Part shown: positions 5,898-27,447 of the stretch, piece by piece
Position numbering within the stretch: position 1 is the stretch's first letter
How the letters are laid out: each line of letters opens with the position of its first letter
NCBI GenBank assembly: GCA_963718585.1
Contig: OY970357.1
Coordinates: forward strand, 570,001-602,000
Reading direction: 5' to 3'
Length of the DNA: 32,000 nt
Source: Candidatus Saccharimonadota bacterium
GTDB taxonomy: Bacteria > Patescibacteriota > Patescibacteriia > 2-12-FULL-60-25
Translations under genes and position numbers: made by a program
Notes under the pieces: model-generated
What the model was told of the DNA's origin: nothing
Databases searched by the model: none
What the model saw: only the letters and a program-made list of their open reading frames with translations

Positions 5898-5898
5898 A

Positions 5899-6513
5899 TC
5901 AACGTTGATAGATCCGTGAGGACACCGTCGTTTGTGCCTGAAGCGTCACATTCTCCTTCGGCTGATCCGAGATGTACTTCAATCCGAGGCTGACCGTCAC
6001 ATATGGCTGGATGTTGTTGGGATACGATCCGCCGACCTTGATAAATGGGTCCTGCGTGGGCTCGAGATACACGTCAAAATTGGTCACATCAACCCGATTC
6101 GCCGTCACCTGCGTCCACGTCGCGCCATCATCGATCGATAGCATGAGACAATGACTGACGATCGTATCCTGGCACTTTGGACTTCCAGTGCTGCTTTCGC
6201 GTGCGATCCAAATATGGATCCCGTTCGATTTGAAGAGTTTGAGGATCGCATCCTTTTCAGCGGGACCTGCAGAATAATCGATGGTGTCGTTCCGCGCTTC
6301 ACGCACGATCGCTTCCATCGCATAGCGCATATCCTGTCCAAGGACCGCCTTGTCCGCGACCCTCCGATGTAATTGATTGAACGAGATGAATATCTGCGAG
6401 AGTGCGACCGCCATCAACATGAAAATGAATGTCACGATCAACATCTCGACCAGGGTGTAGCCCGGCGCGAGAGATGGTTTCCGCGTTGATGTATTGACTC
6501 GGGAACGAGTCAA
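5899..6513 (-). CDS. GspJ/PilW-like minor pseudopilin (start uncertain: TTG 6513, or in-frame ATGs up to 6753)
   Basis: Class III signal ...KPSLAPG|YTLVEMLIVTFIFMLMAVAL with Glu at +5. TTG 6513 gives a 17-aa leader, MTRSRVNTSTRKPSLAPG. The track ORF stays open in frame up to ATG 6753, overlapping the upstream gene by 14 nt. Confidence 0.7.
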   Translation of the reverse strand: MTRSRVNTSTRKPSLAPGYTLVEMLIVTFIFMLMAVALSQIFISFNQLHRRVADKAVLGQDMRYAMEAIVREARNDTIDYSAGPAEKDAILKLFKSNGIHIWIARESSTGSPKCQDTIVSHCLMLSIDDGATWTQVTANRVDVTNFDVYLEPTQDPFIKVGGSYPNNIQPYVTVSLGLKYISDQPKENVTLQAQTTVSSRIYQR

Positions 6514-6648
6514 TGACGGATCGGACGTTTTTTGCGTGATGAGATGCGATGGTTTAGACCAGATGGACTTCGAAAATGGAATGAAACGCGACGAGCTGGA
6601 ACGAGTCGACAAAGGATCGGACGTTTTATGCGTGATGAGATACGAAGG
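6503..6648. repeat. Two 50-nt direct repeats with a 96-nt period upstream of or within the pseudopilin 5' region
   Basis: 6503-6552 versus 6599-6648 match at 43 of 50 positions (gaacgagtc...ggatcggacgtttt.tgcgtgatgagat.cga.gg). A perfect 9-bp hairpin at 6493-6501/6506-6514 contains the TTG candidate start. Confidence 0.85.
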
Positions 6649-6739
6649 CCTGGACGGCGAGACCGCCGGAGACGTATTGAACATACGACGAGGACGGGCT
6701 CGACGGAAGGCCGAGCGAATCGCGCGCATAAAACGTTCG

Positions 6740-7321
6740 TTATCGCCAGTCATACAGATCGTCGTAGACAGTTACACTCTTCGCTATCCCCTTTCGCGTC
6801 CATTGGACTTTTGATTCGACACGTACCCCTTTTTTGGTACCTGCCGCACACGTATTAGGCGGATCTAGGACGGTGATCGCGCCGGAATCGCAGATCGGAT
6901 GGAAAGTGATCAAGCGAGCGTACGGCGTTGAAGTTCCGCTCGTACCCTGTCCATAGAACGTTCCCCCATTGATCAAGAACACCCTCGCTCCCGCGTCTGT
7001 GATCGCGTTCGCTGTAAAATCGAAGGATGGGACCGTACCCGCCTGACCGATCCATGCGGAGGTTCCTGTGTAGTTCGTCGAGTCTCCGACCGCATACAGA
7101 CCTGTATCAAAATCCGCTCCTGCAAGCCAGTTCGAATCCCGGACCTCCTTGGCAAGCTCCACTCCTTCACGCGCCATATTCACTGCGACCACCTCATCCG
7201 TATCCCGATCCACAAGCGCCAAATTGGAATAGACGATCGCCATCGCGGACATCAACCCGACACTGATCACCATCAGGGCGATAAGCATCTCGATCATGGT
7301 CTGTCCGTGTCGCAATCGCAT
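6740..7321 (-). CDS. GspI/PilV-like minor pseudopilin
   Basis: MRLRHG|QTMIEMLIALMVISVGLMSAMAIV: prepilin cleavage/methylation motif with Glu at +5. It sits in the pseudopilin row. Confidence 0.75.
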   Translation of the reverse strand: MRLRHGQTMIEMLIALMVISVGLMSAMAIVYSNLALVDRDTDEVVAVNMAREGVELAKEVRDSNWLAGADFDTGLYAVGDSTNYTGTSAWIGQAGTVPSFDFTANAITDAGARVFLINGGTFYGQGTSGTSTPYARLITFHPICDSGAITVLDPPNTCAAGTKKGVRVESKVQWTRKGIAKSVTVYDDLYDWR

Positions 7322-7322
7322 A

Positions 7323-7931
7323 TCACTCGATGGAGATCCGACCCGTCAGCGCATTCATGCTCACGGTCCTCGTATCATTCGTGACCGTTTGCTTCAGCGT
7401 GATCGATAATGTCGAGGTGGTCATGCCATTGATGAACATGTCCCCGTTCTGACGTTCGAATTCCACATCCGTAGGCGACCCCTGGCTCAAAGCGCTGATG
7501 ACCACATTCGGCGCACCGGCACCCCCAAGATCACGACTCTGAAAGACTTCTTTCGCATCCGTGTATTTGTGATCATTCGTCGTCGGCCGGACATCCGCAT
7601 ACATTCGATAGACCGAACTCCCTGTCGTAAAATGCGCGCCAACGCCTGGTGGCGGCGTCGGGACACACTGCGCCGGATTTGCACACCCAGTCGTGGAATC
7701 TTCACACACGACCGGAACACCGCCCGTATCCGGACAGATCTTCACATTTCCGGCAGAAAGCGCTTGGCTCTGAAGTGACCGCAGATCGCCTTCAACGACA
7801 CGCACCGCCGTGTTCAGCTGATCGACCTGTGATGTGTGATTCAGACTCACGACCGTGATCGTCGCGATGATCGCGAGGACGATGACGCTGACCATCGCCT
7901 CGACGAAACTGAATCCAGGCGCCTTACGCAT
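7323..7931 (-). CDS. GspH/FimT-like minor pseudopilin
   Basis: MRKAPG|FSFVEAMVSVIVLAIIATITVVSLN: prepilin motif. It overlaps the end of pilD by 8 nt. Confidence 0.75.
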   Translation of the reverse strand: MRKAPGFSFVEAMVSVIVLAIIATITVVSLNHTSQVDQLNTAVRVVEGDLRSLQSQALSAGNVKICPDTGGVPVVCEDSTTGCANPAQCVPTPPPGVGAHFTTGSSVYRMYADVRPTTNDHKYTDAKEVFQSRDLGGAGAPNVVISALSQGSPTDVEFERQNGDMFINGMTTSTLSITLKQTVTNDTRTVSMNALTGRISIE

Positions 7932-8721
7932 AGAGGCGCGTCACCCAGGTGATGATCTGTCCGCCGAACCACAAGGCGAGCACCGATCCAGCGGCGAGCG
8001 CCGGCCCGAACGGGATCCGATCACCGCGATGCAGGGTCTTTGAAGCTAATCCGACGATCGCAACGATCCCGCCGGCGAGATATCCGAGATACAGAGCCAC
8101 AAGGACACCCGGCCAGCCGAAGATGCCGGCCATGGCCAAACCGAACCACAGATCACCCATCCCAAGCCAGCGCTCCTTCGACAGGATGATCTGGAGCCCG
8201 AAGAACAAGAGGACGAACACGGCGGCGATGATGACGCTCGAAACGGTCTGCCAAGGATCCCCGCTCAAGAACAGCAGTTTATATGCCAGTGCCGTGATCC
8301 CGATCCCGGCCAAGAACTCGACGGGAAGCTCCTTCCAACGCAGATCCATCACCACCGGAACGAGCAATGCGATCGTGAGGAGGAACTCGAACCAGAACAG
8401 ATACGCGGACGCACCGACGAGCGGATCCCATCGGATCGCGGCGATCACCCCCAGGATCATTGCTGCGCCTTCCACGAGCGGATATTGAATATGGATCTTC
8501 CGATCGCAGGACGGACACCGGCCGCCCAGCATCAAATATGAAAAGACGGGCACGAGGTGCTTCGCGCGGATGGTCTGCTTGCAATGCGGACAGGCAGAAC
8601 GACCCATCAACGATGCACCTTCATGCCACCGATAGGCTAAGACGTTCGCAAACGAACCCAGCGCTCCGCCGAGAAGCGCGACATAGATGATACCGATGAC
8701 CCGTTCAAGCATGAACATCAC
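7924..8721 (-). CDS. pilD: Prepilin peptidase / N-methyltransferase (A24 family)
   Basis: Polytopic membrane protein with CPHC...CPSC Zn-binding pairs in the first cytoplasmic loop, and Asp motifs VVMDLRWKELP and GMGDLWFG. Confidence 0.9.
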   Translation of the reverse strand: MMFMLERVIGIIYVALLGGALGSFANVLAYRWHEGASLMGRSACPHCKQTIRAKHLVPVFSYLMLGGRCPSCDRKIHIQYPLVEGAAMILGVIAAIRWDPLVGASAYLFWFEFLLTIALLVPVVMDLRWKELPVEFLAGIGITALAYKLLFLSGDPWQTVSSVIIAAVFVLLFFGLQIILSKERWLGMGDLWFGLAMAGIFGWPGVLVALYLGYLAGGIVAIVGLASKTLHRGDRIPFGPALAAGSVLALWFGGQIITWVTRLYA

Positions 8722-9182
8722 TCCTCGTCATCCGTCTGATTGATGCCGTCTGCATGCGCATAGTACGTCCCTGCTGTCCCGTATGCGGTCTGCCGCTCTG
8801 TCGCGAACCGGATGGAATATCCCTGTGCAGATCCATGATATCGATAGTATTCTCCACCCTTCGGGCCCACCGGAACCTGGGAAAGGTACACGGGAGAAGA
8901 TGCACTGTTCGCCGGGACAAACCCATCAACGGTCAGACGATCCACACCCGCTCCGGGAGCACCAAGATCCACGGGATCGCTTTGCGGATACCCAGCCTTT
9001 TGCAGCCAGTACTGCGTCAGACCGGCACGAAGGACCGCGACATCTGATACGCGCTTGTTATCGCGATTCATGGATCGCGTGATGTTCAGCATGTAGATCC
9101 CGACGGCAGCCAGGATGCCGACTGCGACCACGACGACGAGGATCTCCAAAAGGGTGAAACCTGGCAGGTTGCGGCGTTTCAT
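8718..9182 (-). CDS. Type IV pilin-like protein (second pilin)
   Basis: MKRRNLPG|FTLLEILVVVVAVGILAAVGIY: prepilin motif. ATGA overlap with the pilD start. Confidence 0.8.
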   Translation of the reverse strand: MKRRNLPGFTLLEILVVVVAVGILAAVGIYMLNITRSMNRDNKRVSDVAVLRAGLTQYWLQKAGYPQSDPVDLGAPGAGVDRLTVDGFVPANSASSPVYLSQVPVGPKGGEYYRYHGSAQGYSIRFATERQTAYGTAGTYYAHADGINQTDDEE

Positions 9183-9193
9183 AGGTTGACCTC

Positions 9194-9222
9194 AGTATAC
9201 CCTATCTGCGGTTTAGGGTTAA
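9194..9222 (-). promoter_or_regulatory. Putative promoter of the second pilin / pilD / pseudopilin transcript
   Basis: Minus strand reads TTAACC (9217-9222), a 17-nt spacer, TATACT (9194-9199), then 11 nt to ATG 9182. The -35 element abuts the T-tract of the preceding terminator. Confidence 0.35.
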
Positions 9223-9248
9223 TAAAACCGCCCCGTCTAGCGGGGCGG
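9221..9248 (-). terminator. Rho-independent terminator after the major pilin gene
   Basis: Minus strand reads CCGCCCCG ctaga CGGGGCGG TTTTATT. The 8-bp GC stem is 9228-9235/9241-9248, 13 nt after the stop. Confidence 0.85.
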
Positions 9249-9261
9249 TCATTTGGAGACC

Positions 9262-9771
9262 CTACTTCAGGATCCCGTTTTGGTTTGCCTGGTGTCCTCC
9301 CGCAGCGAGGTTGTTGACCGCGCCTTCCGTATAGAAGTTGATCGTAAAGGAGTCCAGTGCACCTCCAGCCGCAATTGTATATTCGCAGTCGGTATTAGCA
9401 CCCGTGCATTTCGTCGCGCTGCCCGGATACTTCGGATCCTTCAACAGGCCGAAATTCGAGTAGTTTGTCGTGACATCGGCCGCCGCGCCTGCCGAGCAGC
9501 CCCCCTTACAGATCTTGGCGATGCTCAGGTCGCCGGCCGCCGCGTACCCCAAGCCACCGGTGCAGTTATTCTTACATAGCGCATTGGTCGCATCGTCCTG
9601 AAGCGCCGCCGCGAAGGCACTGGTCACCGTCCGGATATCAGCAACGCGCTTGGAGTCACGCGCCTTCGTCTGTGCGCTGTTGAATGCAACAACGGCGAGG
9701 GTCGCGAGCAAGCCGATGATGGCGATCACCACCAGGAGCTCGATAAGGGTAAACCCTTTACGTTTCGTCAT
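9262..9771 (-). CDS. pilA: Major type IV pilin
   Basis: MTKRKG|[40 protein letters not shown] is a classical pilin N-terminus. The gene has its own promoter region and terminator. There are six Cys in three short pairs. Confidence 0.85.
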
Positions 9772-9813
9772 AAAATGAATTGATTTGTTTGGGTTAATGA
9801 TGAATGTTGAAAA

Positions 9814-9842
9814 GAGTATAACACGTTTTCACTCAACAAAAA
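9814..9842 (-). promoter_or_regulatory. Putative promoter of the major pilin gene (extended -10)
   Basis: Minus strand reads TGtTATACT, with the -10 at 9814-9819 and TG at 9821-9822, in an AT-rich gap. The weak -35 candidate is TTTTTG (9837-9842). An unstructured, AT-rich leader of roughly 35 nt follows, without SD. Confidence 0.35.
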
Positions 9843-9860
9843 AAGTTATCCACAGTTCAC

Positions 9861-11081
9861 TTATCCGATCCCAGCCCCGCTCGAAAGCTGGTAGAGCGGC
9901 AACATGATGGCGGAGACAAGGACACCAACGCCTAAGCCAAGGATCACGATCACGATCGGCTCAATGAGCTTGGTCAGAGTTGCGACCACATTGTCGATCT
10001 CCCGGGAGTAAAATTCGCTCAATCGCCCAAGGATGTTCTCGGTCTTCCCTGTTCCCTCACCGACCTCAAGCATCTGCAGCATCATAGTGGGGATGAATTT
10101 ATGCCGCTTGAAAGCCGTCACAATGGAATTCCCATCGTTCACCTCTTGGATCGTTTCAAGGACCGCCCGCTTCCAGACCGCGTTCCCGACCACGCCAGAA
10201 ACGATCTCCAAGGCGGAAACGAGGTCCATACCCCCATGCACGAGCGTTTCAAGCGAACGTGAAAATCGAACAACGTACATCTCCCGGAATAACAGACCAA
10301 AGATCGGGATCTTCATCTTGATACTGTCCCACGTATACCGTCCGGGCGGCGTCCCGATCCAGGCACGGAAACCGACACCCAATCCGACCATGGCGATCAG
10401 GATGAGCCACCACCAAGTTGCCATGAATCCGGAGGTCGCGATGAGGATCCTGGTGGAAAGCGGCAATTCGACATTTGCCTGCGACAGGATGGACGTCAGC
10501 TTCGGCACCACGAATGTCATCATGACGAATCCGACGACGAACATGACGGAGATGATGAAGGCTGGATAGATCAGTGCCCCCTTGATCTTGGCCGACAGAT
10601 CAAAATCCTTTTCCTGCTGATCCGCCAGATATTCGAGCACTTCGGAAAGCTGCCCCGTCGTTTCCCCAGAACGAACCATGTTGATGAAAAACCCGCTAAA
10701 GACCTTGGGGTAGCGCTCAAGCGCGTCTGAAAAACGGGCACCGTTCTCCACCTCACCCCCTACATCGGAAAGGATGGATCTGAGCCGCGGATTTTCCGTC
10801 TGATGCGCGATGTTCCGCACCGCATCAGCCACGGGCACGGACGCACTGATCATCACGGACAATGTCCGCGTCGCGATGACAAGGTCCTTCGGCTTGACGC
10901 GATTCAAAAGGAGCGTCAGGCGCTGTTCCGCGACTTCGACGCCTTCATATGGCTCCAAGAGCAAAACATCCAAACTCCGCTCAACAAGTGCCTCCTGAGC
11001 TGTATTGATGTCCTCCGATTCGATGGTTCCGGCTTGCATCCGGCCATCGGACATCCGCGCACGATACTTGAATGTTGGCAT
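9861..11081 (-). CDS. pilC: Type IV pilus platform protein (GspF/PilC family)
   Basis: 406-aa polytopic protein with duplicated GspF-type cytoplasmic domains (MPTFKYRARMSDGRMQAGTIE...; ...GETTGQLSEVLEYLA...; ...VGEGTGKTENILGRLSEFY). Confidence 0.92.
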   Translation of the reverse strand: MPTFKYRARMSDGRMQAGTIESEDINTAQEALVERSLDVLLLEPYEGVEVAEQRLTLLLNRVKPKDLVIATRTLSVMISASVPVADAVRNIAHQTENPRLRSILSDVGGEVENGARFSDALERYPKVFSGFFINMVRSGETTGQLSEVLEYLADQQEKDFDLSAKIKGALIYPAFIISVMFVVGFVMMTFVVPKLTSILSQANVELPLSTRILIATSGFMATWWWLILIAMVGLGVGFRAWIGTPPGRYTWDSIKMKIPIFGLLFREMYVVRFSRSLETLVHGGMDLVSALEIVSGVVGNAVWKRAVLETIQEVNDGNSIVTAFKRHKFIPTMMLQMLEVGEGTGKTENILGRLSEFYSREIDNVVATLTKLIEPIVIVILGLGVGVLVSAIMLPLYQLSSGAGIG

Positions 11082-11087
11082 AGTTCG

Positions 11088-11096
11088 ATATTAGCA
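11088..11096 (-). promoter_or_regulatory. Extended -10 element immediately upstream of pilC (leaderless design)
   Basis: Minus strand reads TGcTAATAT (11088-11096), followed by 6 nt (cgaact) and ATG 11081. No SD is present. Confidence 0.35.
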
Positions 11097-11232
11097 CGGC
11101 CACAAGCGGGCTTCACGTCTTTTCACAGCCGTTCAGAATGGATGAGATGCGCCGGGCTGGAGCCTGAAAAAACCGCAAGCGTATGACACATACGATGAGG
11201 ATTATTTCGGGCGAAGCCCAAGTAGATCGCCA

Positions 11233-11616
11233 TTATGTACGGCTATCGGCGAGGATCTCTTTGACACGTGCCACCGTCTCCTGCGGCAATGAATGCGCCT
11301 TGATGACATATCCTGCCGCGCCGAGCTTCAAACAGCGCTCCACATCCTCCTTTTGTCCGAGATTCGTGAGAACGAGGACCGGGATCTTCGTAAGATCGGC
11401 ATCCGCTTTCATCTGCTCCAGGACCTCGAACCCATTCAATTTGGGCATGAGCAGGTCCAAAAGGACGAGATCCGGCATCTCTTTCCGCGCGAGCTTCAGC
11501 CCATCTTCCCCGTTCGTGGCAAGCGTGGTCTCAAACCCCTCCAGCTCCAACTTTTGCGCATAGATGCTGGCCAGGAATCCGTCGTCTTCGACAATGAGAA
11601 TGTGTTGCTTCGGCAT
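11233..11616 (-). CDS. Stand-alone response-regulator receiver domain (CheY-like)
   Basis: 127 aa: ILIVEDDGFLASIY...PDLVLLDLLMPKLNGFEVL...PVLVLTNLGQ...GAAGYVIKA. Acidic pocket, phospho-acceptor Asp, and conserved T and K positions are present. No output domain. Confidence 0.9.
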   Translation of the reverse strand: MPKQHILIVEDDGFLASIYAQKLELEGFETTLATNGEDGLKLARKEMPDLVLLDLLMPKLNGFEVLEQMKADADLTKIPVLVLTNLGQKEDVERCLKLGAAGYVIKAHSLPQETVARVKEILADSRT

Positions 11617-11631
11617 AATGAGGTCAATGGC

Positions 11632-11733
11632 CTATGAATTTCGATGGAACGCGCCTTGCTGGACCGAGCAGACGACGCAGGCGTACGGATGGGACCACGA
11701 GGAGGAAGCGGGCAGACAGATCGCGTTTTTCAT
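11632..11733 (-). CDS. 33-codon small ORF spanning most of the pilB-receiver spacer (hypothetical)
   Basis: ATG lies 6 nt after the pilB TAG. TAG stop is 15 nt before the receiver ATG. Peptide: MKNAICLPASSSWSHPYACVVCSVQQGAFHRNS. Confidence 0.2.
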   Translation of the reverse strand: MKNAICLPASSSWSHPYACVVCSVQQGAFHRNS

Positions 11734-11739
11734 GTGGCG

Positions 11740-13479
11740 CTAGATATCTTCTTGGGTCGCCTGAGACAGGCGAAGCACCTCTTCTACTGTCGTGATCCCC
11801 GCAAGCGCCTTGAGGATCGAGTCCTGCCGGAGTGTGATCGCACCCTGTTTCGTGAAATACGCTCGCGCTTCTTCCTGGGGATACCCCTTTTCGACCAAAC
11901 GCTTGACCGGTTCAGTGAACTGGATCATCTCCGCCACCACGGCCCGCCCCTGATACCCGGAATCACCGCATCGGGAGCACCCTTTGCCGTGATAGAACAC
12001 AAGATCCCCGTCTGGATTGAAATCCTTGGGATAATATTGCGGCGGAATGGCTTTGATCTCTCTCCGGAGTGAATCCAACGTCGCTTTCTCAAGCTCAAGC
12101 GGTTCTTTGCAGTGGGTGCAGATCTTGCGCGCAAGCCGTTGGGCGATGCCAAGATTGATCGTAGCGGCTAGCAGATAGGGCTCCAGACCCATGTCCAAAA
12201 GACGCGGAATGATGCCGAACGCATCGTTCGTATGCAGGGTCGAGAACACGAGATGACCGGTCAGCGAGGCGTGGATCGCCAATTCCGCCGTTTCTTTATC
12301 TCGGATCTCACCGACCATGATCACGTTCGGATCCTGACGGAGAAGGGCGCGGAGCCCGGTCGCGAACGTATACCCGATCTCCGGACGGACCTGCGATTGG
12401 TTCACCCCTTCGATGTAATACTCGACCGGATCTTCCAGCGTCGAGATGTTCACCCCTTCGCTGTTGAGTTGATTCAACACCGCGAACAGGGTCGTCGATT
12501 TTCCGGAACCGGTCGGCCCGGTGACCAGGAACATCCCATTCGGTCGCGTCATCTCCTCTTCCATGATCTTGACGTGCTCTGTACGGAATCCGAGCTGGGA
12601 CGGCGTCGGCGCGGTCGCAGACGTGTCGAGGATACGCATCACGACCTTCTCGTTATCAACGACCGGCAGGGTCGAGATACGGAAATCGATCTTCCGTCCA
12701 CCTATCTCCTGCGTGATGCGACCGTCCTGCGGGACGCGCGTCTCATCGATCTTGAGATTCGCCAACACTTTGATGCGTGAGATGATCGCTGGATGCACAT
12801 AGATCGGCAGGATGAGCGACGTCCGAAGGACGCCGTCGATGCGATACCGGACGCGGGATTCGTCGCCGATCGGCTCGATATGGATATCCGACGCCCCACC
12901 CTCTACCGCGTGTCGCATGATGACGGACACCATCCGCGAGACCGGCGCGCCCTTGATGATCTCCTCAAGCTTCCCGACATCTTCGGTCTTGATCTCTTTC
13001 CGCTCGAACTTGCCCTTCGCCTGCGCCAAGGCCGTCGCGACCTCGGCACCGAGTCCACGGACCTTCTTCAGCAGGCTCTGGATCTGACTGGACGGGGCGA
13101 CGACATACCGGATCGACCATCCCTTGTCCGCCGCCATGAACTCCAACGCCTCCGTCGCGTGATAGTCACGCGGATCCAACATGGCGACCTCCAGCACTTT
13201 TCCATCAAACGCCGTGGGAACCACGTTGTACGTGTCCATCGTCGCTTGCGGAATGATCTCCAATGTCTCCTTCGGGATCACGCGCTCTGTCAGATCCACA
13301 TACGGGAGACCAAGGACCTGTGCACGCGCTTTCGCGAAATCATGATCACTGACATATTTGCCGCCGACCAGGGCCTGCTCGATGGTCTTCCCCCGTTTCA
13401 CCAATTCCCGGACGCTTTTCGCGGCCTTCTCGTCGATCTTCTTGCTATTGAGCAAGGATGTCAAAAGTTCTTCATCCAT
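11740..13479 (-). CDS. pilB: Type IV pilus assembly ATPase (GspE/PilB family)
   Basis: N-terminal T2SSE_N-like region, Walker A GPTGSGKST, Walker B/Asp box VIMVGEIRD, His box, and tetracysteine CTHC...CSRC. Confidence 0.95.
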   Translation of the reverse strand: MDEELLTSLLNSKKIDEKAAKSVRELVKRGKTIEQALVGGKYVSDHDFAKARAQVLGLPYVDLTERVIPKETLEIIPQATMDTYNVVPTAFDGKVLEVAMLDPRDYHATEALEFMAADKGWSIRYVVAPSSQIQSLLKKVRGLGAEVATALAQAKGKFERKEIKTEDVGKLEEIIKGAPVSRMVSVIMRHAVEGGASDIHIEPIGDESRVRYRIDGVLRTSLILPIYVHPAIISRIKVLANLKIDETRVPQDGRITQEIGGRKIDFRISTLPVVDNEKVVMRILDTSATAPTPSQLGFRTEHVKIMEEEMTRPNGMFLVTGPTGSGKSTTLFAVLNQLNSEGVNISTLEDPVEYYIEGVNQSQVRPEIGYTFATGLRALLRQDPNVIMVGEIRDKETAELAIHASLTGHLVFSTLHTNDAFGIIPRLLDMGLEPYLLAATINLGIAQRLARKICTHCKEPLELEKATLDSLRREIKAIPPQYYPKDFNPDGDLVFYHGKGCSRCGDSGYQGRAVVAEMIQFTEPVKRLVEKGYPQEEARAYFTKQGAITLRQDSILKALAGITTVEEVLRLSQATQEDI

Positions 13480-13482
13480 AGA

Positions 13483-13929
13483 TCAAGGGGTGATGGGGGT
13501 CGTCGTATTCTCCACCGGCTGAGGTTCGGGATTTGTCGTCGTTGGAACGACCGCTGGAGCGATGACGGGTGTAGAAGTCGTCTCCATATGCATCATCGCG
13601 TCTGGCACGGTCGACGTTGCGGCAACGGTCGACGTCGCAGTACCGGTTGACGTGGTCGCGATCGATGTCACAGGCACCGGCGCAAACGGATCCTCACGTC
13701 CCATCACGGTCGGCGTGATCAGATCCGGACCGAGCGGATGCAACGTGTCGAATGTCGCATTCTTCGTGACATCGGCGGCCGGATCGAAGGTTGCCGCACT
13801 ACGCGTGACTGAGACGGGTGGGATCGCGACCGGCGCAAGGCTCGTACGGATGAACCAATACGAAAGACCGATGACCGCGAGCGCGCCGACGATCAGGAGG
13901 ATGCGTGAGACAAGAGGTGGCGTGGTCAT
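13483..13929 (-). CDS. Membrane-anchored Thr/Pro-rich protein of the pilus operon (weak PilP-like motif)
   Basis: Start placed at ATG 13929, 1 nt after the pilO stop. The track ORF's N-terminal extension overlaps pilO. One TM (ILLIVGALAVIGLSYWF), an REDPFAP motif, then a Thr/Pro/Ala/Val-rich tail. Confidence 0.6.
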   Translation of the reverse strand: MTTPPLVSRILLIVGALAVIGLSYWFIRTSLAPVAIPPVSVTRSAATFDPAADVTKNATFDTLHPLGPDLITPTVMGREDPFAPVPVTSIATTSTGTATSTVAATSTVPDAMMHMETTSTPVIAPAVVPTTTNPEPQPVENTTTPITP

Positions 13930-13930
13930 A

Positions 13931-14575
13931 TCAAGGCGTCGACTTCGCGACGGTCGCGGATTGGAAGATGTAGGTTCGCAACTGCAGCGAGAACTGCATC
14001 TCCTGACCAGCTCCTCCACCGGACGTGGTCATGGCGATGACATCCATCAGCCGGAGACTGGACTCGAGACTGGCAAGGAACCGCTTCACATCAAAATACG
14101 CATTCGCGTTCAGACTGAGATTGATATCGACCGGTACCGCTTTTGCGGTCGCCGGACGTCCGGGCTGCGGAGCTTCTGGCTTCGGCGGGCTGAACGCCAC
14201 CGCCGTGACGCGGACTGCCGTATTGGCGGCCGCGGAACCGATCTGGACCAACAACCCCGGGACATCCACGTCGTTCGGCAAGGCCCGATCCACCTGTGCG
14301 AGGACGGTCGGTGAGATCACTTGCGCGGCGGATACGGATTTATCCAGGCTGGCAAGATAGGTCCGCTCCGCATCCGCCTGCTGGATCAGCGCCTGCGTAT
14401 CTGCGTTCGACTGTTTGATGCGATCGATCTCTGGTTTGACGACGAAAAAAGCACCAAGGACGAACAGCGCGATCAGGAAAAGGAACGCCGCTCCATAATA
14501 TTCGGTATAAAAACGCGATGGCGGCGTTGCGGCCTTCGGCTTGTTCGCGTTCAGCGTTGGTGCGTCATTCGGCAT
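13931..14575 (-). CDS. pilO: PilO-like pilus alignment protein
   Basis: Bitopic architecture: short cytoplasmic N-terminus, TM (AAFLFLIALFVLGAFFVV), a coiled-coil segment, then a C-terminal alpha/beta part. Located directly after pilN. Confidence 0.65.
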   Translation of the reverse strand: MPNDAPTLNANKPKAATPPSRFYTEYYGAAFLFLIALFVLGAFFVVKPEIDRIKQSNADTQALIQQADAERTYLASLDKSVSAAQVISPTVLAQVDRALPNDVDVPGLLVQIGSAAANTAVRVTAVAFSPPKPEAPQPGRPATAKAVPVDINLSLNANAYFDVKRFLASLESSLRLMDVIAMTTSGGGAGQEMQFSLQLRTYIFQSATVAKSTP

Positions 14576-14578
14576 AGA

Positions 14579-15670
14579 TCAAGGACTCACGGCGACCGTA
14601 CTGGTCGAAGCGCGCAAAGCGAGGTCGTTGAGGGTCAAAGAGAGCTGAAAATCCACATTCGTCGCATCATTCGTGGATGTCGAGTATTGCATCGCGTAAT
14701 TCGGCGCCTGCACAGAGGTGATGAAATCCGCATGCTGGAAGACCGAGACCTGTCCTGCCGCAGACTCGATGGATCTGGCCTTCACCCCCAGAGAAAGCGT
14801 GCCGTCCGAGGTCAACGAAAACGAATTATACGCGACATCTGGAAGCGTATGCGATTCGATCAGCTGAAGAAGATGGGTCGGACTGACGTGCTGATCAAGG
14901 AGTTGATTCAAGGCCACCAGCCGCGGTTCGAGATCTTGGAAATCCGACCACTGCTTCTGTTTCGATGCGATATCTTGCTGGACCTGCGTGAGCTGATCCT
15001 GCGCCTCCTGCTTGCTCGCATCAGCTCCCGTCAACTGATATCGCAGGAGCGCATAGCTTCCGCCCAAAAGAATGAGGAACAGGACCGCTGCCGTCGCAAA
15101 GGTGAAACGCCGTTTTGCGACGTCGATATGCAACATGCGAAGCTCTTCTTCTGAGACGAAGCTGACATGGAGCGGTTTGCGGACCCGTTTGATGATCCGG
15201 ACGCGATGCGGCGCCGTCGCGGACGGCGTAATGCGAGCCTTTGGCTTAGCCGGAGCGGCTGGCGCCATACCTGCCGGCGCCATAGGAGGTTTAGCCGGGA
15301 GAGCGGCACCCATGGGTGGAACCGGCGCGCCCAACGGCGCCATTCCCGTCTTTTTTTCTGGCGGTTTGAAAAATTGCGGTGGCGCTTTCGGCGGTGGTGC
15401 GATCGGCTGAGGCTTGAACAACTTATCCTTCAAACCCTGTAGAAAGGCCGTGGCTTTATAGACAAAACGAGTCAATGGCGGTTCGTTCGCCAAGATCTGA
15501 TCCAGCTCTCCCTCGTCCACTTCGATGACCTCGACCTCCTCCCCTTCGTCGGCCGGAACGGAGAACTTCAACTCTTCCGGTTTGGGAGGTTCCGGTTTGG
15601 GTTCATGCTTCTTCAGTTCCTCTTCTTTGCCGCGTTGATTTTCGGGAAGAAGGGAGATCTCGTCACTCAT
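14579..15670 (-). CDS. pilN: PilN-like protein with a long acidic/Pro-rich cytoplasmic insertion
   Basis: The N-terminal ISLLPE matches the conserved PilN INLLP-type peptide. The TM lies at about aa 190-209, followed by a coiled coil and a periplasmic-type domain. About 175 aa of Glu- and Pro/Ala/Met-rich sequence lie between the motif and the TM. Confidence 0.7.
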   Translation of the reverse strand: MSDEISLLPENQRGKEEELKKHEPKPEPPKPEELKFSVPADEGEEVEVIEVDEGELDQILANEPPLTRFVYKATAFLQGLKDKLFKPQPIAPPPKAPPQFFKPPEKKTGMAPLGAPVPPMGAALPAKPPMAPAGMAPAAPAKPKARITPSATAPHRVRIIKRVRKPLHVSFVSEEELRMLHIDVAKRRFTFATAAVLFLILLGGSYALLRYQLTGADASKQEAQDQLTQVQQDIASKQKQWSDFQDLEPRLVALNQLLDQHVSPTHLLQLIESHTLPDVAYNSFSLTSDGTLSLGVKARSIESAAGQVSVFQHADFITSVQAPNYAMQYSTSTNDATNVDFQLSLTLNDLALRASTSTVAVSP

Positions 15671-15836: not shown

Positions 15837-16904
15837 TTATTCGATGTCGCGCATGGCACAGCCGATCGCTACGGAAAACCGCGGTCCGATCTCATCCAAA
15901 ACGGGCCGCAGATCCAAAGGATACACGACGCGCGCCCAGGGGTCTCCTAGGTAGGCGTTCACGTTCATGAGCGAGGTCACGAATTCAGGCAGATTCGGCA
16001 ACAACGCGGAGCCGCCCGTCAGGATGATCTTATCGATCCGCTTCTGAACCCCGCCTTCGCTCTGCCCCTGATACATATTGAACGAATACCGGATCTCATC
16101 GATCACCGGTTTCAGCAAGGTATTCAGGATCGGTGTGATATCGCTCGCCTGTGCAAAACTTTGCATGGCGCGGATATCACGCTTCATGTTCTCCGCCTGT
16201 TCAAACGGGATGCCGATGGTCTTGGAGATCGTCTGAGTGATATTGATCCCGCCGGCGGCGACCGATCGATTGAGGAACGGGATCCCCTTATCAATGACCG
16301 AGATGTTCGTCCGCGTGGAGCCGATATCAATGACCATGATGCTCGACCGATCCTTCCCCACGAGTGACCGGATCTCCGCGAACGCTTCGGTCTCAAGTGA
16401 GATGAGCTCCAGGTCGGCTTTTTTCATCAATTCGATATATTTCTGGACGAGCGACTTCGGCGCCCCGGTCAGGAGCACACGCGTGGTCTTCTTCTTACCA
16501 TCCCCCGAGATCGTATCGATGATCTTGGAATCGAGTGATACCTCCTCCAACGGGACCGGTATGAGTTTCTTCGCCTGCCACTGGATCGCATCTTTGATCT
16601 CCTTATCCGAGTTCCCCGGGACGCTGATGATCGACGAGAAGACCGCTGAGATCGGCAACGCTCCCACGACAAGCTTGGTCGTGCACTTTGATTTGGACAG
16701 CATCTTCTTCACGAACTTGGCCGTCTTATCCACATCTGCGCCAAGGGCCGTTTCGATGTCCGGCGTCGGGAGCGCCGCATGCGCATAGGTCACGAGACGC
16801 GCGCGCCCCTTCTCGTTCTGCAATTCGACGATCTTGATGCCGGATTGGCCGATATCGAATCCGATGTAACTCTGCTTCTTCGATTTGGTGGAGAAAAGGC
16901 TCAT
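15837..16904 (-). CDS. pilM: PilM, actin-like ATPase of the pilus alignment complex
   Basis: 355 aa: YIGFDIGQSGIKIVEL..., IMVIDIGSTRTNISVI..., ILTGGSALLPNL. These are actin/HSP70-fold phosphate-binding motifs typical of PilM/FtsA-like proteins. Confidence 0.9.
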   Translation of the reverse strand: MSLFSTKSKKQSYIGFDIGQSGIKIVELQNEKGRARLVTYAHAALPTPDIETALGADVDKTAKFVKKMLSKSKCTTKLVVGALPISAVFSSIISVPGNSDKEIKDAIQWQAKKLIPVPLEEVSLDSKIIDTISGDGKKKTTRVLLTGAPKSLVQKYIELMKKADLELISLETEAFAEIRSLVGKDRSSIMVIDIGSTRTNISVIDKGIPFLNRSVAAGGINITQTISKTIGIPFEQAENMKRDIRAMQSFAQASDITPILNTLLKPVIDEIRYSFNMYQGQSEGGVQKRIDKIILTGGSALLPNLPEFVTSLMNVNAYLGDPWARVVYPLDLRPVLDEIGPRFSVAIGCAMRDIE

Positions 16905-16910
16905 AGAAAG

Positions 16911-18908
16911 TTAGAAGGCGTCTTGAGTAGCGGGGAGAGACTTGGAGACGTCGGCCATGCCTGGCGGCGGATTAGCGACCGCGCGGCCGTCAAAGATCAC
17001 ATTCTCCGCCGGGGTGCTCGGATCACGGACCACGCGCTGAAGATCGATCTGATGGGCGGCCATGAGGCCGTACACGGTCAGCGGCTGCTCGCTCGGACAG
17101 GTCGTCGCGCCGCCGCACGCCGTCCCGGTCTTGATCGATTCTTCCGCGAACATCGCGGCAGAGACGATCGTGACACCCGGATCAATGACGATGTTCCCAC
17201 CAAATCCATTCTTCTTCGTCACAATGATACCAAGTGAGGCGAGATTGCGCAGATATTGGATGCTGGCGGACGGTGCATACGTGATATTCCCCGTGATATG
17301 GAGATCCGCGCCCTCGATGATGAGGAGGCCATTCCCCCGATCTGTCTGCGCGGAACCGTTCCCAAGCGCGGCCGCGTTGAGCGTGATCGTCCCTGGACCG
17401 ACCGCATGATAGACCTTGCCGCCAAGGAGCGTCGGCAGACTGCCGGTGAAATTCACGACAGCCCCGTAATGTCCGGCAAGGATGCCATAGATATCGAGAC
17501 TCCCGAGCGTGCCCTGATATTGCTGTGCCCCGGATGGGAGCTGGATCTTCTGCGCTCCGGTCTCGGAGCATCCTTTTGCACTCGTGAAACCGGTGATCGA
17601 CCCTTCGGTCGTCAGACAGTACGTGGCATTATTCGTGGTCAAAAGCGGCGAGGAAGAAGCGACCAGTCCCTGCTGGGCGTAGATGCTGCCATATTGGGTC
17701 TGCAGCCAGGGCGGCGCACAGGTGGGATCCACGGCCTGACAGCTCGCATCATTGCAATCCACTGTCCCATTGCCGTCATCGTCGATGCTGTTCGAGCAAC
17801 ACGCGTGCACCCCGAGCGGCGCGAATGGCGGATTCGGATCCGTGCACGATGGTTCGCTCCCTGCCGGCGGAGGCGGCGGCGAACACGAGGCCCCCGGAGG
17901 TCCGACATATCCGGCGCACCCTGGATCCGCGCAGTCGATCAACCCGTTGCCGTTATCATCCTTCCCATTGCCGCACAAAGGAGTCCCGCCCGCGTCCGTG
18001 ACTCCCGGCACTTCATTGCAGTACGAGCTCGGCTGACACGCGGCGGCCGCACAATCGATCAGTCCGTCGCCATTATCATCCACGCCGTTGTGACACATGT
18101 TATTTCCCCCAGAATCAGTATTCGTCGGGATCTCCTGACACGCTGCGGTCGATTGGCACGCACTATCTTGACAATCGATCTTCCCGTTCAGATCGTTGTC
18201 CTTCCCGTCTGTACACGCGGATTCGCCCGGGGTGTTGAGATAGACGCTTGAAAAATCGATGTACCCGAACCCTGTACCATCCGAATTCCCGTTCCAGGCG
18301 AATGACGTATACGGCGGCGGCGTGTTCGCCGTGAACTTCTTGGTCGTAGGATCGTATTGGACCTTATATGCATAAATGCCGCACGCGGACGGATCAGTAC
18401 AATTGAGTGAGACATACCCGGCATCGCCCTCGTTGCAGACCTTGGCCCATCCATGGACGTCCGTGACTCCGCTGACCGGATTGAGATACGCCGATGCGGA
18501 CCCGGGGGAACTGAATCCACCACATGCAGAACACGAATCTCCGAAGCAGATCCACCCTGCTCCATCATTCCACGCGAACCCATTCATGTTGCGTGTGTTT
18601 GGATCGACGTTCACACCGTAACTCCCACAGGGTCCGGGCGAACATGCTCCCGCGTTCGTGTCATTCATCGATGACCAGCCGATCGGATCCGCCCAGATCC
18701 ATCCCATGACATTGTCCGAGACCGTTGCCTGTGCAGGATGCTGGACCGCTCCGTATTGGAATGACGCGACCATCATGCCGACGCCGACGAACATGATGAA
18801 TCCGGATAGAAGATGATGCCATCGCCATAACCAATTCGGCCGCTTCAAGCGGCGCCGCGATCGTCTCGCGGTACGTCGAGTCCTGGTCTGACGCTTGGTC
18901 GTTACCAT
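16911..18908 (-). CDS. Large N-terminally anchored Cys/Asp-rich surface protein leading the pilus operon (candidate adhesin or Ca-binding pilus factor)
   Basis: Very basic N-terminus plus one TM. Four Trp/Gly-rich motif repeats (GWIWADPIGWSSMN, FAWNDGAGWICF, HGWAKV..AGYVSLN, FAWNGNSDGTGFGYIDF). Four Cys-bracketed repeats of the form C.[DN]G.D[DN][DN].[DN]G.[IV]DC....C (aa 232-397). The C-terminal third is predicted beta-rich. Confidence 0.8.
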   Translation of the reverse strand: MVTTKRQTRTRRTARRSRRRLKRPNWLWRWHHLLSGFIMFVGVGMMVASFQYGAVQHPAQATVSDNVMGWIWADPIGWSSMNDTNAGACSPGPCGSYGVNVDPNTRNMNGFAWNDGAGWICFGDSCSACGGFSSPGSASAYLNPVSGVTDVHGWAKVCNEGDAGYVSLNCTDPSACGIYAYKVQYDPTTKKFTANTPPPYTSFAWNGNSDGTGFGYIDFSSVYLNTPGESACTDGKDNDLNGKIDCQDSACQSTAACQEIPTNTDSGGNNMCHNGVDDNGDGLIDCAAAACQPSSYCNEVPGVTDAGGTPLCGNGKDDNGNGLIDCADPGCAGYVGPPGASCSPPPPPAGSEPSCTDPNPPFAPLGVHACCSNSIDDDGNGTVDCNDASCQAVDPTCAPPWLQTQYGSIYAQQGLVASSSPLLTTNNATYCLTTEGSITGFTSAKGCSETGAQKIQLPSGAQQYQGTLGSLDIYGILAGHYGAVVNFTGSLPTLLGGKVYHAVGPGTITLNAAALGNGSAQTDRGNGLLIIEGADLHITGNITYAPSASIQYLRNLASLGIIVTKKNGFGGNIVIDPGVTIVSAAMFAEESIKTGTACGGATTCPSEQPLTVYGLMAAHQIDLQRVVRDPSTPAENVIFDGRAVANPPPGMADVSKSLPATQDAF

Positions 18909-18916
18909 TCCACGCT

Positions 18917-18925
18917 ATTGTAACA
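18917..18925 (-). promoter_or_regulatory. Extended -10 element of the pilus operon (leaderless design)
   Basis: Minus strand reads TGtTACAAT (18917-18925), followed by 8 nt (agcgtgga) and ATG 18908. It directly abuts the T-tract of the upstream terminator. Confidence 0.4.
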
Positions 18926-18926
18926 C

Positions 18927-18948
18927 AAAAAACGGCCCTCGGCCGTCC
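18927..18948 (-). terminator. Rho-independent terminator after recJ-rnhA
   Basis: Minus strand reads ACGGCC gag GGCCGT TTTTT. The stem is 18941-18946/18932-18937 and the T-run is 18927-18932. Confidence 0.75.
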
Positions 18949-19071
18949 TTATCCACATGGGAGATAGCGTGTCTGTGCGTTGGCGTGTTTGCGTAACATC
19001 CACCGCCCGATCCTTTCCTCATTCTCACTTCCCATTCCCCACTCCGCATCCCCTTCTTCTTTCTCCGTTCT

Positions 19072-24395: not shown

Positions 24396-24405
24396 AAAAA
24401 ATGAC

Positions 24406-27434: not shown

Positions 27435-27447
27435 ATGCACCGATGAT

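What the first reader, a model, noticed from the sequence alone, without database searches (positions are those of the whole stretch)
16911..18908. Pilus operon led by a 665-aa anchored protein with four Cys-bracketed DxDxDG-type repeats and Trp/Gly-rich repeats
This is the first gene of the pilM-N-O-B transcript. It has an extremely basic N-terminus (TTKRQTRTRRTARRSRRRLKR) and one TM.

Four Trp/Gly-rich motif repeats follow. After them come four repeats of about 40 aa (DNA 17718-18215):
- CTDGKDNDLNGKIDCQDSAC
- CHNGVDDNGDGLIDCAAAAC
- CGNGKDDNGNGLIDCADPGC
- CSNSIDDDGNGTVDCNDASC

Asp/Asn-rich DxDxDG loops are classical Ca-binding elements (EF-hand-like, thrombospondin type 3-like, MopE-like). 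Calcium binding by the PilY1 tip protein is known to control pilus dynamics in Pseudomonas. This protein could therefore be an unrelated functional analogue: a Ca-dependent adhesin or tip factor mediating host or surface contact.
Basis: partly seen in the sequence, partly recalled or inferred. Interest (0 to 1): 0.65.

Follow-up and report, generated by a model that had tools for sequence, protein, structure and literature searches.

The report
Unnamed lead gene of CPR pilus operons
The gene is real and belongs to an unnamed protein family that sits directly in front of the type IV pilus assembly genes in ultrasmall (Patescibacteria) bacteria. It probably codes for a secreted accessory or adhesin part of the pilus, and its calcium-binding repeats look like an optional spacer, not the functional core.

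Summary
A 665-aa ORF (16911-18908, minus strand) ends 6 nt before pilM. It has a very basic N-terminus, one hydrophobic helix, four Trp/Gly beta-hairpin repeats and four Cys-bracketed acidic repeats (aa 229-397).

- **Repeats:** they match NCBIfam NF033662 ("acidic double-disulfide repeat") and the teneurin-4 C-rich domain, which binds three Ca2+ in its crystal structure. Calcium binding is therefore plausible by homology.
- **Spacer, not core:** copy number ranges from 0 to 13 among homologues that keep the same position before pilM.
- **Family hallmark:** the C-terminal domain (aa 398-665) is a predicted triangular beta-solenoid with a near-invariant tail. It has no Pfam model and only a weak fold resemblance to ice-binding proteins and to the Thermus tip pilin ComZ.
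- **Synteny:** about 73 of 78 informative species-level loci, plus remote and giant variants, have pilM directly downstream.
- **"Anchored" is doubtful:** a conserved AxA motif (A59-A61), and ordinary Sec signal peptides in distant relatives, suggest the N-terminus is cleaved off.

My best reading is a secreted, non-pilin pilus accessory protein built on PilY1-like logic. That function is inferred, not shown. The main rival is a wall-spanning machine component. Interest is moderate.

The parts
16911..18908 (-). Whole gene, 665 aa plus stop: the first gene of the pilus assembly operon.
   Evidence: ORF list. About 77 full-length homologues, all from Patescibacteria. Conserved position before pilM.
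18831..18908 (-). Very basic n-region (aa 1-26, 12 K/R in the first 23 residues), ending in the conserved RPxWLWRW motif.
   Evidence: Sequence. The motif is conserved in Uhrbacteria-type homologues. pLDDT is below 50 for residues 1-23.
18756..18830 (-). Hydrophobic helix (aa 27-51): either the h-region of a long Sec signal peptide or a signal anchor.
   Evidence: AlphaFold helix 27-51. Distant homologues have ordinary short signal peptides at this place.
18726..18734 (-). A59-Q60-A61: a conserved AxA motif, the predicted signal peptidase I site (cut after A61).
   Evidence: The -1 position is Ala in 49/53 sequences and the -3 position is Ala/Val in 45/53. The linker 53-62 has pLDDT below 50.
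18225..18725 (-). WG domain (aa 62-228): four Trp/Gly beta-hairpin repeats, an orphan fold.
   Evidence: Invariant G/W columns. AlphaFold gives paired strands at pLDDT about 80-93. No Pfam, PDB-sequence or choline-binding-repeat relation was found.
18138..18224 (-). Cys repeat 1 (aa 229-257), ESACTDGKDNDLNGKIDCQDSACQSTAAC.
   Evidence: NF033662. Teneurin C-rich alignment: 8 of 9 ligand positions are D/N/E.
18018..18104 (-). Cys repeat 2 (aa 269-297).
   Evidence: NF033662. 7 of 9 ligand positions are D/N/E.
17883..17984 (-). Cys repeat 3 (aa 309-342), with a longer last loop, followed by a Pro-rich linker.
   Evidence: NF033662. 7 of 9 ligand positions are D/N/E.
17718..17807 (-). Cys repeat 4 (aa 368-397).
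   Evidence: NF033662. 7 of 9 ligand positions are D/N/E.
16914..17717 (-). C-terminal hallmark domain (aa 398-665): a predicted triangular beta-solenoid, always at the C-terminus of family members.
   Evidence: AlphaFold pLDDT 82.8, pTM 0.80. Weak Foldseek matches to ice-binding proteins and ComZ. 562 cluster representatives at E<=1e-3, with the listed matches ending within a few residues of the C-terminus in proteins up to 2690 aa.
16914..17033 (-). Near-invariant C-terminal tail (aa 626-665), ...E635..D640-G-R642..N-P-P-P-G650..L658-P659...
   Evidence: Invariant columns. Highest mean identity of any segment, 62%.
18927..18950 (-). GC-rich hairpin followed by a U-run after the upstream RNase H gene: terminator-like, marking the operon start.
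   Evidence: Sequence. Fold -25.9 kcal/mol, z = -3.6. The consensus scanner did not list it.
18917..18925 (-). TGtTACAAT, an extended -10-like element 8 nt before the ATG. The transcript may be leaderless (inference).
   Evidence: Sequence only. The stricter two-hexamer scan did not call it.
15837..16904 (-). pilM, starting 6 nt after the stop codon of the gene.
   Evidence: PF11104, 1.1e-46. Junction sequence.
5067..15670 (-). Rest of the pilus locus: PilN-position protein, PilO, a small bitopic protein, PilB, a receiver-only response regulator, PilC, two pilins, PilD, three pilin-like proteins and a 276-aa unknown.
   Evidence: Pfam. Relatives have the same order.

Best explanation
The gene encodes the Uhrbacteria-type member of a broad, unnamed Patescibacteria (CPR) family of exported proteins that open the type IV pilus assembly operon (X-pilM-pilN-pilO-...-pilB-RR-pilC-pilins-pilD).

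**Shown**
- The gene is co-located and almost certainly co-transcribed with pilM.
- The family is defined by a conserved C-terminal beta-solenoid domain with an invariant tail.
- Everything N-terminal to that domain is modular and lineage-variable: the WG hairpin domain, 0-13 teneurin-type Ca2+-binding double-disulfide modules, or fn3, Ig-like, lectin-like or beta-helix modules in giant variants.

**Inferred**
- The long basic N-terminus is a Sec signal peptide cut after A61.
- The mature protein of about 604 aa is a non-pilin accessory protein.
- Its conserved C-terminal domain docks on the pilus apparatus, most likely the minor-pilin priming or tip complex.
- The WG domain and the Ca2+-stiffened stalk form the exposed, contact-making end.

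This copies the logic of PilY1 (signal peptide, variable N-terminal part, conserved C-terminal docking domain) without homology to it. Calcium would rigidify the disulfide-bonded spacer, not switch pilus dynamics.
For: - **Synteny:** pilM lies within 400 nt downstream in 72-73 of 78 informative GTDB species loci, with a median gap of 6 nt. The same holds in L001-L007 and for remote or giant members P0137, P0193 and P0225.
- **Co-transcription:** the gap is 6 nt, with no terminator between the genes and a terminator-like hairpin upstream.
- **Export signal:** the AxA motif is conserved. Distant members have canonical signal peptides, and none of 145 representatives has a prepilin motif.
- **Conserved C-terminus, variable remainder:**
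- **Fold:** the best fold matches of the C-terminal model include the beta-solenoid of ComZ, a pilus-tip protein (PMC6561018).
- **Calcium modules:** NF033662, the teneurin C-rich domain and ligand conservation.
- **Precedent:** non-PilD proteins have been proposed as PilY1-like adhesins in Saccharibacteria pili (PMC12206443).
Against: - There is no direct evidence of pilus association, adhesion or cleavage.
- The hydrophobic stretch is long (18-23 residues) and the AxA lies 6-11 residues after it, so it could stay a signal anchor. That would exclude a tip location.
- The gene sits with pilMNO, not with the minor pilins where PilY1-type genes usually sit.
- The Foldseek matches are weak (E 3e-3 to 1e-2, TM 0.3-0.4), and no sequence-level link to ComZ, ice-binding proteins or PilY1 was found.
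- X evolves at about the rate of PilN and PilO (31-51% identity against 62-78% for PilM), which would equally suit a machine part.
- A few short paralogues are not next to pilM (L067, L073, L075).
Confidence: 0.4

Rival explanations
1. **Envelope-spanning machine part.** The protein stays tethered, either by an uncleaved signal anchor or by the WG domain binding the wall. The Ca2+-stiffened stalk crosses the peptidoglycan or S-layer, and the conserved beta-solenoid forms or lines the exit port or bushing for the pilus. It would then be a functional substitute for the secretin/PilP/TsaP layer, which is not encoded in this locus.
For: - The gene is first in the pilM-N-O operon, the position that holds structural genes in pilMNOPQ-type operons, and no secretin gene is in the locus.
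- It evolves at a rate similar to PilN and PilO.
- Its conserved domain is the distal C-terminal one.
- The hydrophobic helix is long, and the RPxWLWRWHHL interface motif is conserved in the Uhrbacteria group.
Against: - Protein length varies from about 450 to 2690 aa, and the stalk modules number 0-13 or are replaced by fn3, Ig or lectin-like modules. This is hard to reconcile with spanning a fixed envelope distance.
- Most family members have ordinary cleavable signal peptides.
- The WG domain shows no detectable relation to known wall-binding repeats.
- Nothing was tested on oligomerisation.
Confidence: 0.25
2. **Free-standing surface adhesin.** The protein is co-regulated with the pilus but not physically part of it. 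Pilus retraction would bring the host surface close, and this protein would make the close-range bond.
For: - It has an extracellular modular architecture with adhesin-type modules in its relatives.
- It carries Ca2+-binding cysteine modules like those of the cell-adhesion protein teneurin.
- Some paralogues lie away from pilus genes, next to other large secreted proteins.
Against: - The adjacency to pilM is very tight and very widely conserved, with a median gap of 6 nt. That is more than co-regulation usually requires.
- The most conserved part is the C-terminal domain and tail, which suggests a conserved self partner, not diverse host ligands.
Confidence: 0.15
3. **Glycan-cleaving enzyme.** The C-terminal beta-helix would be a lyase or hydrolase that opens the organism's own wall, or the host's, for the pilus.
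For: - Parallel beta-helices are typical of polysaccharide lyases and tailspikes. Low-ranked Foldseek hits include PL3 and PL6 lyases.
- Invariant polar residues (D472, N517, R625, E635, D640, R642) could form an active site.
Against: - Those fold hits are not significant (E at least 0.75).
- No Pfam or NCBIfam enzyme family matches any of the 53 members.
- The top fold hits are non-enzymatic solenoids.
Confidence: 0.08

Closest known systems
PilY1 / PilC (non-pilin tip and priming protein of type IVa pili in Pseudomonas, Neisseria and Myxococcus)
   Same: - It is a non-pilin protein exported with an ordinary signal peptide and encoded in a pilus locus.
- Its N-terminal part is variable and its C-terminal domain is conserved.
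- It has calcium-binding sites.
- In the window protein the variable N-terminal part, conserved C-terminal domain and pilus locus are observed, calcium binding rests on homology, and export through a cleaved signal peptide is inferred.
   Different: - There is no sequence or fold relation: PF05567 does not match, and the C-terminal domain here is a beta-solenoid, not a beta-propeller.
- The calcium motifs lie in dispensable spacer modules, not in the conserved domain.
- The gene lies before pilM, not among the minor pilins.
ComZ of Thermus thermophilus (PDB 6qvi), a competence pilus tip protein
   Same: It is a pilus-locus protein carrying a large triangular, ice-binding-protein-like beta-solenoid. 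It is among the best fold matches of the C-terminal model (E 1e-2, probability 0.95).
   Different: - ComZ is itself a pilin-fold protein with the solenoid inserted (PMC6561018). The window protein has no pilin fold or prepilin signal.
- The TM-score is only 0.2-0.4, and there is no sequence similarity.
Teneurin C-rich domain (PDB 7plp) / NCBIfam NF033662 acidic double-disulfide repeat
   Same: - The CxDxxDNDxDGxxDCxDxxC motif is the same, with two of the three disulfides and most of the Ca2+ ligand positions.
- It is an extracellular module.
   Different: - The third disulfide (C858-C869) and ligand D856 are missing in all four repeats, and several Asp are Asn.
- The module is tandemly repeated here, whereas the teneurin paper describes a single C-rich domain.
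- Ca2+ binding by the bacterial repeat has not been tested.
PilX1 / PilX2 of Nanosynbacter lyticus TM7x (Saccharibacteria)
   Same: They are large CPR pilus-locus proteins without a PilD signal, proposed to act like PilY1 in host binding (PMC12206443).
   Different: They have different folds (jelly-roll, and RCC1-type beta-propeller) and lie in pilin clusters. No homology was tested or seen.
Ice-binding proteins (IBP-1 fold / DUF3494), e.g. PDB 5uyt and 3wp9
   Same: They are the best Foldseek matches of the C-terminal model (E 2.6e-3 to 5.6e-3, probability 0.96).
   Different: - No Pfam match was found.
- The TM-score is 0.2-0.4.
- The long helix that packs against face A in FfIBP (PMC6561018) has no counterpart in the model, whose helices are only 4-5 residues long.

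Membership tests
NCBIfam NF033662, acidic double-disulfide repeat | Profile score above the curated cutoff. | tested here: met
   85.1 bits against a cutoff of 41, E 1.8e-24, in 4 stretches.
Teneurin C-rich Ca2+-binding domain | Sequence similarity to the solved domain. | tested here: met
   Family profile against 7plp_A: E 2.7e-5. Against teneurin-2 (6cmx): E 1.3e-4.
Teneurin C-rich Ca2+-binding domain | Three disulfides (1-3, 2-5, 4-6) and eight acidic residues plus one Asn as ligands. | tested here: not met
   Only four Cys per repeat. The C858 equivalent is absent from all four repeats. D856 is lost in all four. 7-8 of 9 ligand positions are D/N/E.
Teneurin C-rich Ca2+-binding domain | Actual Ca2+ binding. 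| not testable with these tools
   No ion-aware prediction or experiment was available.
PilY1 / PilC (PF05567) | C-terminal PilY1/PilC beta-propeller domain. | tested here: not met
   No Pfam hit for the window protein or for any of 53 homologues at E<=1. The model is a beta-solenoid.
PilY1 / PilC (PF05567) | Association with minor pilins at the pilus tip or in priming. | not testable with these tools
Type IV pilin / pseudopilin | Class III signal: Gly at -1, Glu at +5, N_methyl motif (PF07963). | tested here: not met
   No PF07963 hit. No G[FMILV][TS]L..E motif in the window protein or in 145 representatives.
Secretin (PilQ / GspD) | Secretin and N0/N1 domains. | tested here: not met
   No Pfam family at E<=1.
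Thrombospondin type 3 repeat, EF-hand and MopE motif (PF11617) | Profile match. | tested here: not met
   The window protein has 0 Pfam families at E<=1. PF11617 hits 1 of 53 members at E 0.015, and the only EF-hand-type family in the list hits 1 member at E 0.93.
Ice-binding protein fold (DUF3494) / ComZ solenoid | Triangular right-handed beta-solenoid with a significant structural match. | tested here: inconclusive
   Foldseek E 2.6e-3 to 1e-2 and probability 0.95-0.96, but TM-score 0.2-0.4 and no match at E<=1e-3.
Choline-binding / cell-wall-binding repeats (CW_binding_1) | Profile similarity of the WG hairpins. | tested here: not met
No Pfam hit.
Sec signal peptide with a signal peptidase I site | n-h-c regions with small residues at -3 and -1. 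| tested here: inconclusive
   AxA is conserved (Ala at -1 in 49/53, Ala/Val at -3 in 45/53), and distant members have canonical signal peptides. The h-region here is long, and no predictor or experiment was available.

The most novel reading that the evidence does not exclude
This family could be the missing outer component of the Patescibacteria type IV pilus machine. It would be a secreted or tethered beta-solenoid protein, unrelated to secretins, that guides the pilus through the wall or S-layer on calcium-stiffened stalks of lineage-specific length. That would make it a new class of pilus-machine part for a cell envelope that is neither classic monoderm nor diderm.
Probability: 0.2. Interest if true: 0.8.

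Novelty: new variant of a known kind. Interest (0 to 1): 0.5.

Why it matters
Type IV pili are the best-supported means by which ultrasmall CPR bacteria find and hold their hosts. However, only the core machine and a few Saccharibacteria pilins have been examined.

This work defines a family that no source in the protein collection names beyond "hypothetical protein" or a generic beta-helix label. It has at least 562 clusters at 50% identity and opens the pilus operon across many CPR lineages. Its docking-type C-terminal domain is conserved and its outward modules are swappable.

If it is the tip or accessory adhesin, it is a concrete handle on host specificity in uncultured episymbionts. If it is a wall-crossing part, it bears on how pili leave a CPR cell without a secretin.

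It also shows that the teneurin C-rich calcium module has tandem bacterial counterparts, which is relevant to the bacterial ancestry of teneurin parts.

Tried and rejected
- **Library scans.** Pfam, PHROGs and NCBIfam scans of the whole protein and of three sub-segments gave only the NF033662 repeat. A Pfam scan of all 53 aligned homologues gave nothing consistent.
- **Fold searches with the full-length model.** Foldseek against PDB and against viral structures gave nothing at E<=1e-3. Only the isolated C-terminal model gave weak solenoid matches.
- **WG domain.** The word-indexed protein search returned few, unnamed, mostly partial hits. There was no PDB sequence hit at E<=10. The idea that it is a choline-binding-type wall-binding repeat was tested and rejected at the profile level.
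- **Prepilin idea.** Rejected: there is no N_methyl motif, and Gly at -1 is not conserved.
- **Tat signal idea (SRRRLK).** Considered and set aside. The motif is not at the n/h boundary, distant homologues have plain Sec signals, and disulfide-bonded Ca2+ modules argue for Sec export. This is inference, not a test.
- **Recent DNA-level repeat expansion.** Rejected.
- **Paralogues within the window.** None found.
- **Promoter and terminator scanner.** It found nothing on the minus strand around the gene. The hairpin and -10-like element were read by eye and folded.
- **Literature.** Searches found no paper describing this family or the NCBIfam repeat name.
- **Giant variant P0211.** Its context was uninformative because the contig ends just beyond the gene.
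Full report
**1. What is in the sequence**

The minus strand carries an ATG-initiated ORF at 16911-18908 of 665 aa. Its first 23 residues contain 12 Lys/Arg. AlphaFold2, run with a 53-sequence alignment, predicts a single helix at residues 27-51 followed by a low-confidence linker at 53-62.

Residues 62-228 hold four Trp/Gly beta-hairpin repeats: GWIW...GW, GFAW...GW, GWAK...GY and FAW...GFGY. The Gly and Trp columns are invariant or at least 90% conserved across homologues.

There is no DNA-level tandem repeat and no paralogue in the window.

The stop codon lies 6 nt before the pilM start. Downstream on the same strand are:
- PilM (PF11104)
- a 363-aa PilN-position protein without a Pfam match
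- PilO
- a small unknown protein
- PilB
- a receiver-only response regulator
- PilC
- two pilins, then PilD, then three further pilin-like proteins and a 276-aa unknown

Upstream, after an RNase H gene, there is a GC hairpin with a U-run (fold z = -3.6). This is followed by TGtTACAAT, 8 nt before the ATG. The gene therefore looks like the first cistron of the pilus operon and may be leaderless. That last point is inference only, because the consensus scanner listed neither element.

**2. The repeats**

Pfam finds nothing in the protein. NCBIfam NF033662, "acidic double-disulfide repeat", matches four times (85 bits, cutoff 41).

A profile of the family also hits the teneurin-4 C-rich domain (PDB 7plp, E 2.7e-5) and teneurin-2. 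That domain was solved at 1.5 Å. It binds three Ca2+: two in thrombospondin-T3-like sites and one in an LDL-A-like site, held by three disulfides (PMC9058538).

Aligned on the cysteines, each window repeat keeps two of the three disulfides and has D/N/E at 7-8 of the 9 side-chain ligand positions. The D856 equivalent is lost in all four repeats.

Calcium binding is thus a reasonable homology-based inference, at least for the T3-like sites, but it has not been tested.

The same repeat occurs in unrelated secreted proteins such as trypsin-like proteases and PPC or CarboxypepD_reg proteins. It is a general extracellular module.

**3. The family and its genomic position**

About 77 full-length homologues were found, all from Patescibacteria and Uhrbacteria metagenome bins and none with an informative name.

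Every locus inspected has the homologue directly before pilM. These homologues range from 50% identity down to 31% over 40% of the query, the last one in a different genomic neighbourhood.

A scan of one genome per GTDB species returned 80 loci. Of the 78 with enough downstream sequence:
- 72 have pilM within 400 nt, and a 73rd (L044) has a fragmentary pilM match about 260 nt downstream
- 52 have pilM within 30 nt
- the median gap is 6 nt

A full HMMER search with the C-terminal domain alone found 562 cluster representatives at E<=1e-3. In the listed hits the match ends within a few residues of the C-terminus, in proteins up to 2690 aa long.

Three remote representatives were looked up, and all are followed by pilM within about 100-210 nt. 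Two are about 500 aa with plain signal peptides and no Cys repeats. The third is a 1549-aa variant with a beta-helix region. It lies in the same lepA-recJ-rnhA-X-pilMNO-pilB neighbourhood as the window gene, and one of the ~500-aa members shares the recJ-rnhA-X-pilM part of it.

Giant variants carry fn3, Ig-like and DUF2341 modules. Four short paralogues (signal peptide, WG domain, C-terminal domain) are not next to pilM, or lie 2 kb from it.

**4. Which parts are conserved**

- **Cys repeats:** they vary from 0 to 13 copies and form the least conserved region.
- **WG domain and C-terminal domain:** both average about 50% identity to the query.
- **C-terminal tail (aa 626-665):** this is the most conserved segment at 62%. 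It carries invariant E635, D640-G-R642, P648-P-G650 and L658-P659.

So the pilus-linked constant of the family is the C-terminal domain, not the calcium modules.

**5. Fold of the C-terminal domain**

Modelled alone, the domain gives pLDDT 82.8 and pTM 0.80, with a run of short parallel strands.

The best Foldseek matches against PDB are bacterial ice-binding proteins (E 2.6e-3 and 5.6e-3) and ComZ of Thermus thermophilus (E 1e-2). Probabilities are 0.95-0.96, but TM-scores are only 0.2-0.4 and nothing reaches E<=1e-3.

ComZ is a competence-pilus tip protein whose inserted domain is an ice-binding-protein-like triangular beta-solenoid (PMC6561018).

I read this as follows: the domain is a triangular beta-solenoid of that general type, and any relationship to ComZ is unproven.

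The WG domain has no detectable relative in Pfam or among PDB sequences. It is not related to choline-binding repeats at the profile level.

**6. Anchor or signal peptide**

Residues A59-Q60-A61 form an AxA motif 7-8 residues before the first invariant Gly. Across 53 homologues the -1 position is Ala in 49 and the -3 position is Ala or Val in 45.

Distant members have short, textbook Sec signal peptides ending in AxA at the same aligned place.

The Uhrbacteria-type N-terminus (long basic n-region, RPxWLWRWHHL motif, 18-23 hydrophobic residues) is therefore most simply an elaborated signal peptide. I put cleavage at roughly 60-65%. An uncleaved signal anchor cannot be excluded with these tools.

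No member has a prepilin signal.

**7. Mechanism**

The pattern closely resembles the PilY1 pattern:
- a type I signal peptide
- a variable N-terminal and middle region
- a conserved C-terminal domain with an invariant tail
- strict pilus-operon linkage

My preferred explanation (0.40) is a secreted non-pilin accessory protein. Its C-terminal solenoid would dock on the pilus apparatus, most likely the minor-pilin priming or tip complex. The WG domain on a Ca2+- and disulfide-stiffened stalk would be the exposed end. Every step after "exported and co-transcribed with pilM" is inference.

The rivals are:
- a tethered, wall-crossing machine part replacing the secretin layer (0.25), favoured by the position before pilMNO and a PilN/PilO-like evolutionary rate, but disfavoured by the huge length variation
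- a separate co-regulated adhesin (0.15)
- a glycan-cleaving beta-helix enzyme (0.08)

Whether the N-terminus is cleaved is the single most discriminating unknown between the first two.

**8. Comparison with known systems and novelty**

The protein is not a member of any of these families:
- PilY1/PilC
- pilins
- secretins
- thrombospondin type 3 repeats
- EF-hand proteins
- MopE proteins (Pfam tests not met)

Its repeats are members of NF033662 and homologous to the teneurin C-rich domain. They lack that domain's third disulfide and one ligand.

In CPR, the only comparable proposals are PilX1 and PilX2 of TM7x, which have other folds (PMC12206443).

I found no paper on this family. The one informative name any source gives a member is the generic "right-handed parallel beta-helix repeat-containing protein" for P0225; all other named members are "hypothetical protein".

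I rate it a new variant of a known kind: a pilus accessory protein with a new domain make-up. Interest is moderate at 0.5. The family is broad, consistently placed and uncharacterised, but its function remains inferential and the striking calcium repeats turn out to be an optional spacer.

Noticed in passing
window 18795-18908 (-): The public gene call for this protein (P0001, 627 aa) starts at Met39. It cuts off the basic n-region and the RPxWLWRWHHL motif that homologues conserve. Several database homologues appear truncated in the same way, for example P0002-P0004, which start at MMLASFQ... or MLASVQ...
   Followed up: partly
window 11233-11616 (-): A receiver-only response regulator (PF00072, 3e-24) lies between pilB and pilC. 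A gene with the same Pfam domain lies directly after pilB in L001, L002, L005 and L006, and before pilC wherever the locus extends that far. This suggests phospho-control built into the CPR pilus operon.
   Followed up: partly
window 14579-15670 (-) and 13483-14019 (-): The PilN-position protein is 363 aa, has a Pro/Ala-rich N-terminal half and no Pfam match. After PilO comes a small bitopic Thr/Pro-rich protein, also without a match. A small gene occupies this position after PilO in most relatives examined (L001, L002, L005, L006, L088, L092) and may be a PilP-like analogue.
   Followed up: no
window 18917-18950 (-): A terminator-like hairpin with a U-run is immediately followed by TGtTACAAT, 8 nt before the ATG. 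The pilus operon mRNA may be leaderless. The tool's consensus scan listed neither element.
   Followed up: partly
window 5899-6753 (-): The N_methyl (prepilin) motif is at aa 98-118 of this 284-aa ORF. Either the real start is internal or this pilin-like protein has an unusually long leader. The following 276-aa ORF (5067-5897) has no Pfam match.
   Followed up: no
window 23166-24464 (-): A cyclopropane-fatty-acyl-phospholipid synthase-like gene (PF02353, 7e-98) lies between recJ and lepA. Relatives L001 and L002 have unrelated small genes there. I recall that CPR bacteria are usually described as lacking lipid synthesis, which would make a lipid-modifying enzyme notable; that point was not checked here.
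   Followed up: no
window 26454-28302 (-): Two adjacent FecR-domain proteins lie next to MurJ (28322-29947). L001 has a FecR-domain gene in the same place.
   Followed up: no
window 3251-5017 (+): A 588-aa GTG-initiated ORF on the opposite strand has no Pfam match and lies in the window's most GC-rich stretch (61-63%). It is unclear whether it is a real gene.
   Followed up: no
L015, L018, L023, L024, L031-L033, L080 and others: Many contigs with this typical Patescibacteria locus (recJ-rnhA-X-pilM...) carry record titles such as "uncultured Gammaproteobacteria", "Candidatus Methylomirabilis" or "Vicinamibacterales". These are probably placeholder names or mis-binned contigs.
   Followed up: no
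L067, L069, L073, L075: Short paralogues of about 450-480 aa (plain signal peptide, WG domain, C-terminal domain, no Cys repeats) are not adjacent to pilM. In L075 the next gene encodes an 898-aa secreted repeat protein.
   Followed up: partly
L060-L066, L070, L072, L074, L081, L083, L084: Giant variants of 1300-1560 aa begin, right after the signal peptide, with a conserved CxGNxCT motif. They have 5-8 Cys repeats and no WG hairpins detected by the motif search, and they lie 40-380 nt before pilM. Their long middle region has no Pfam match.
   Followed up: partly
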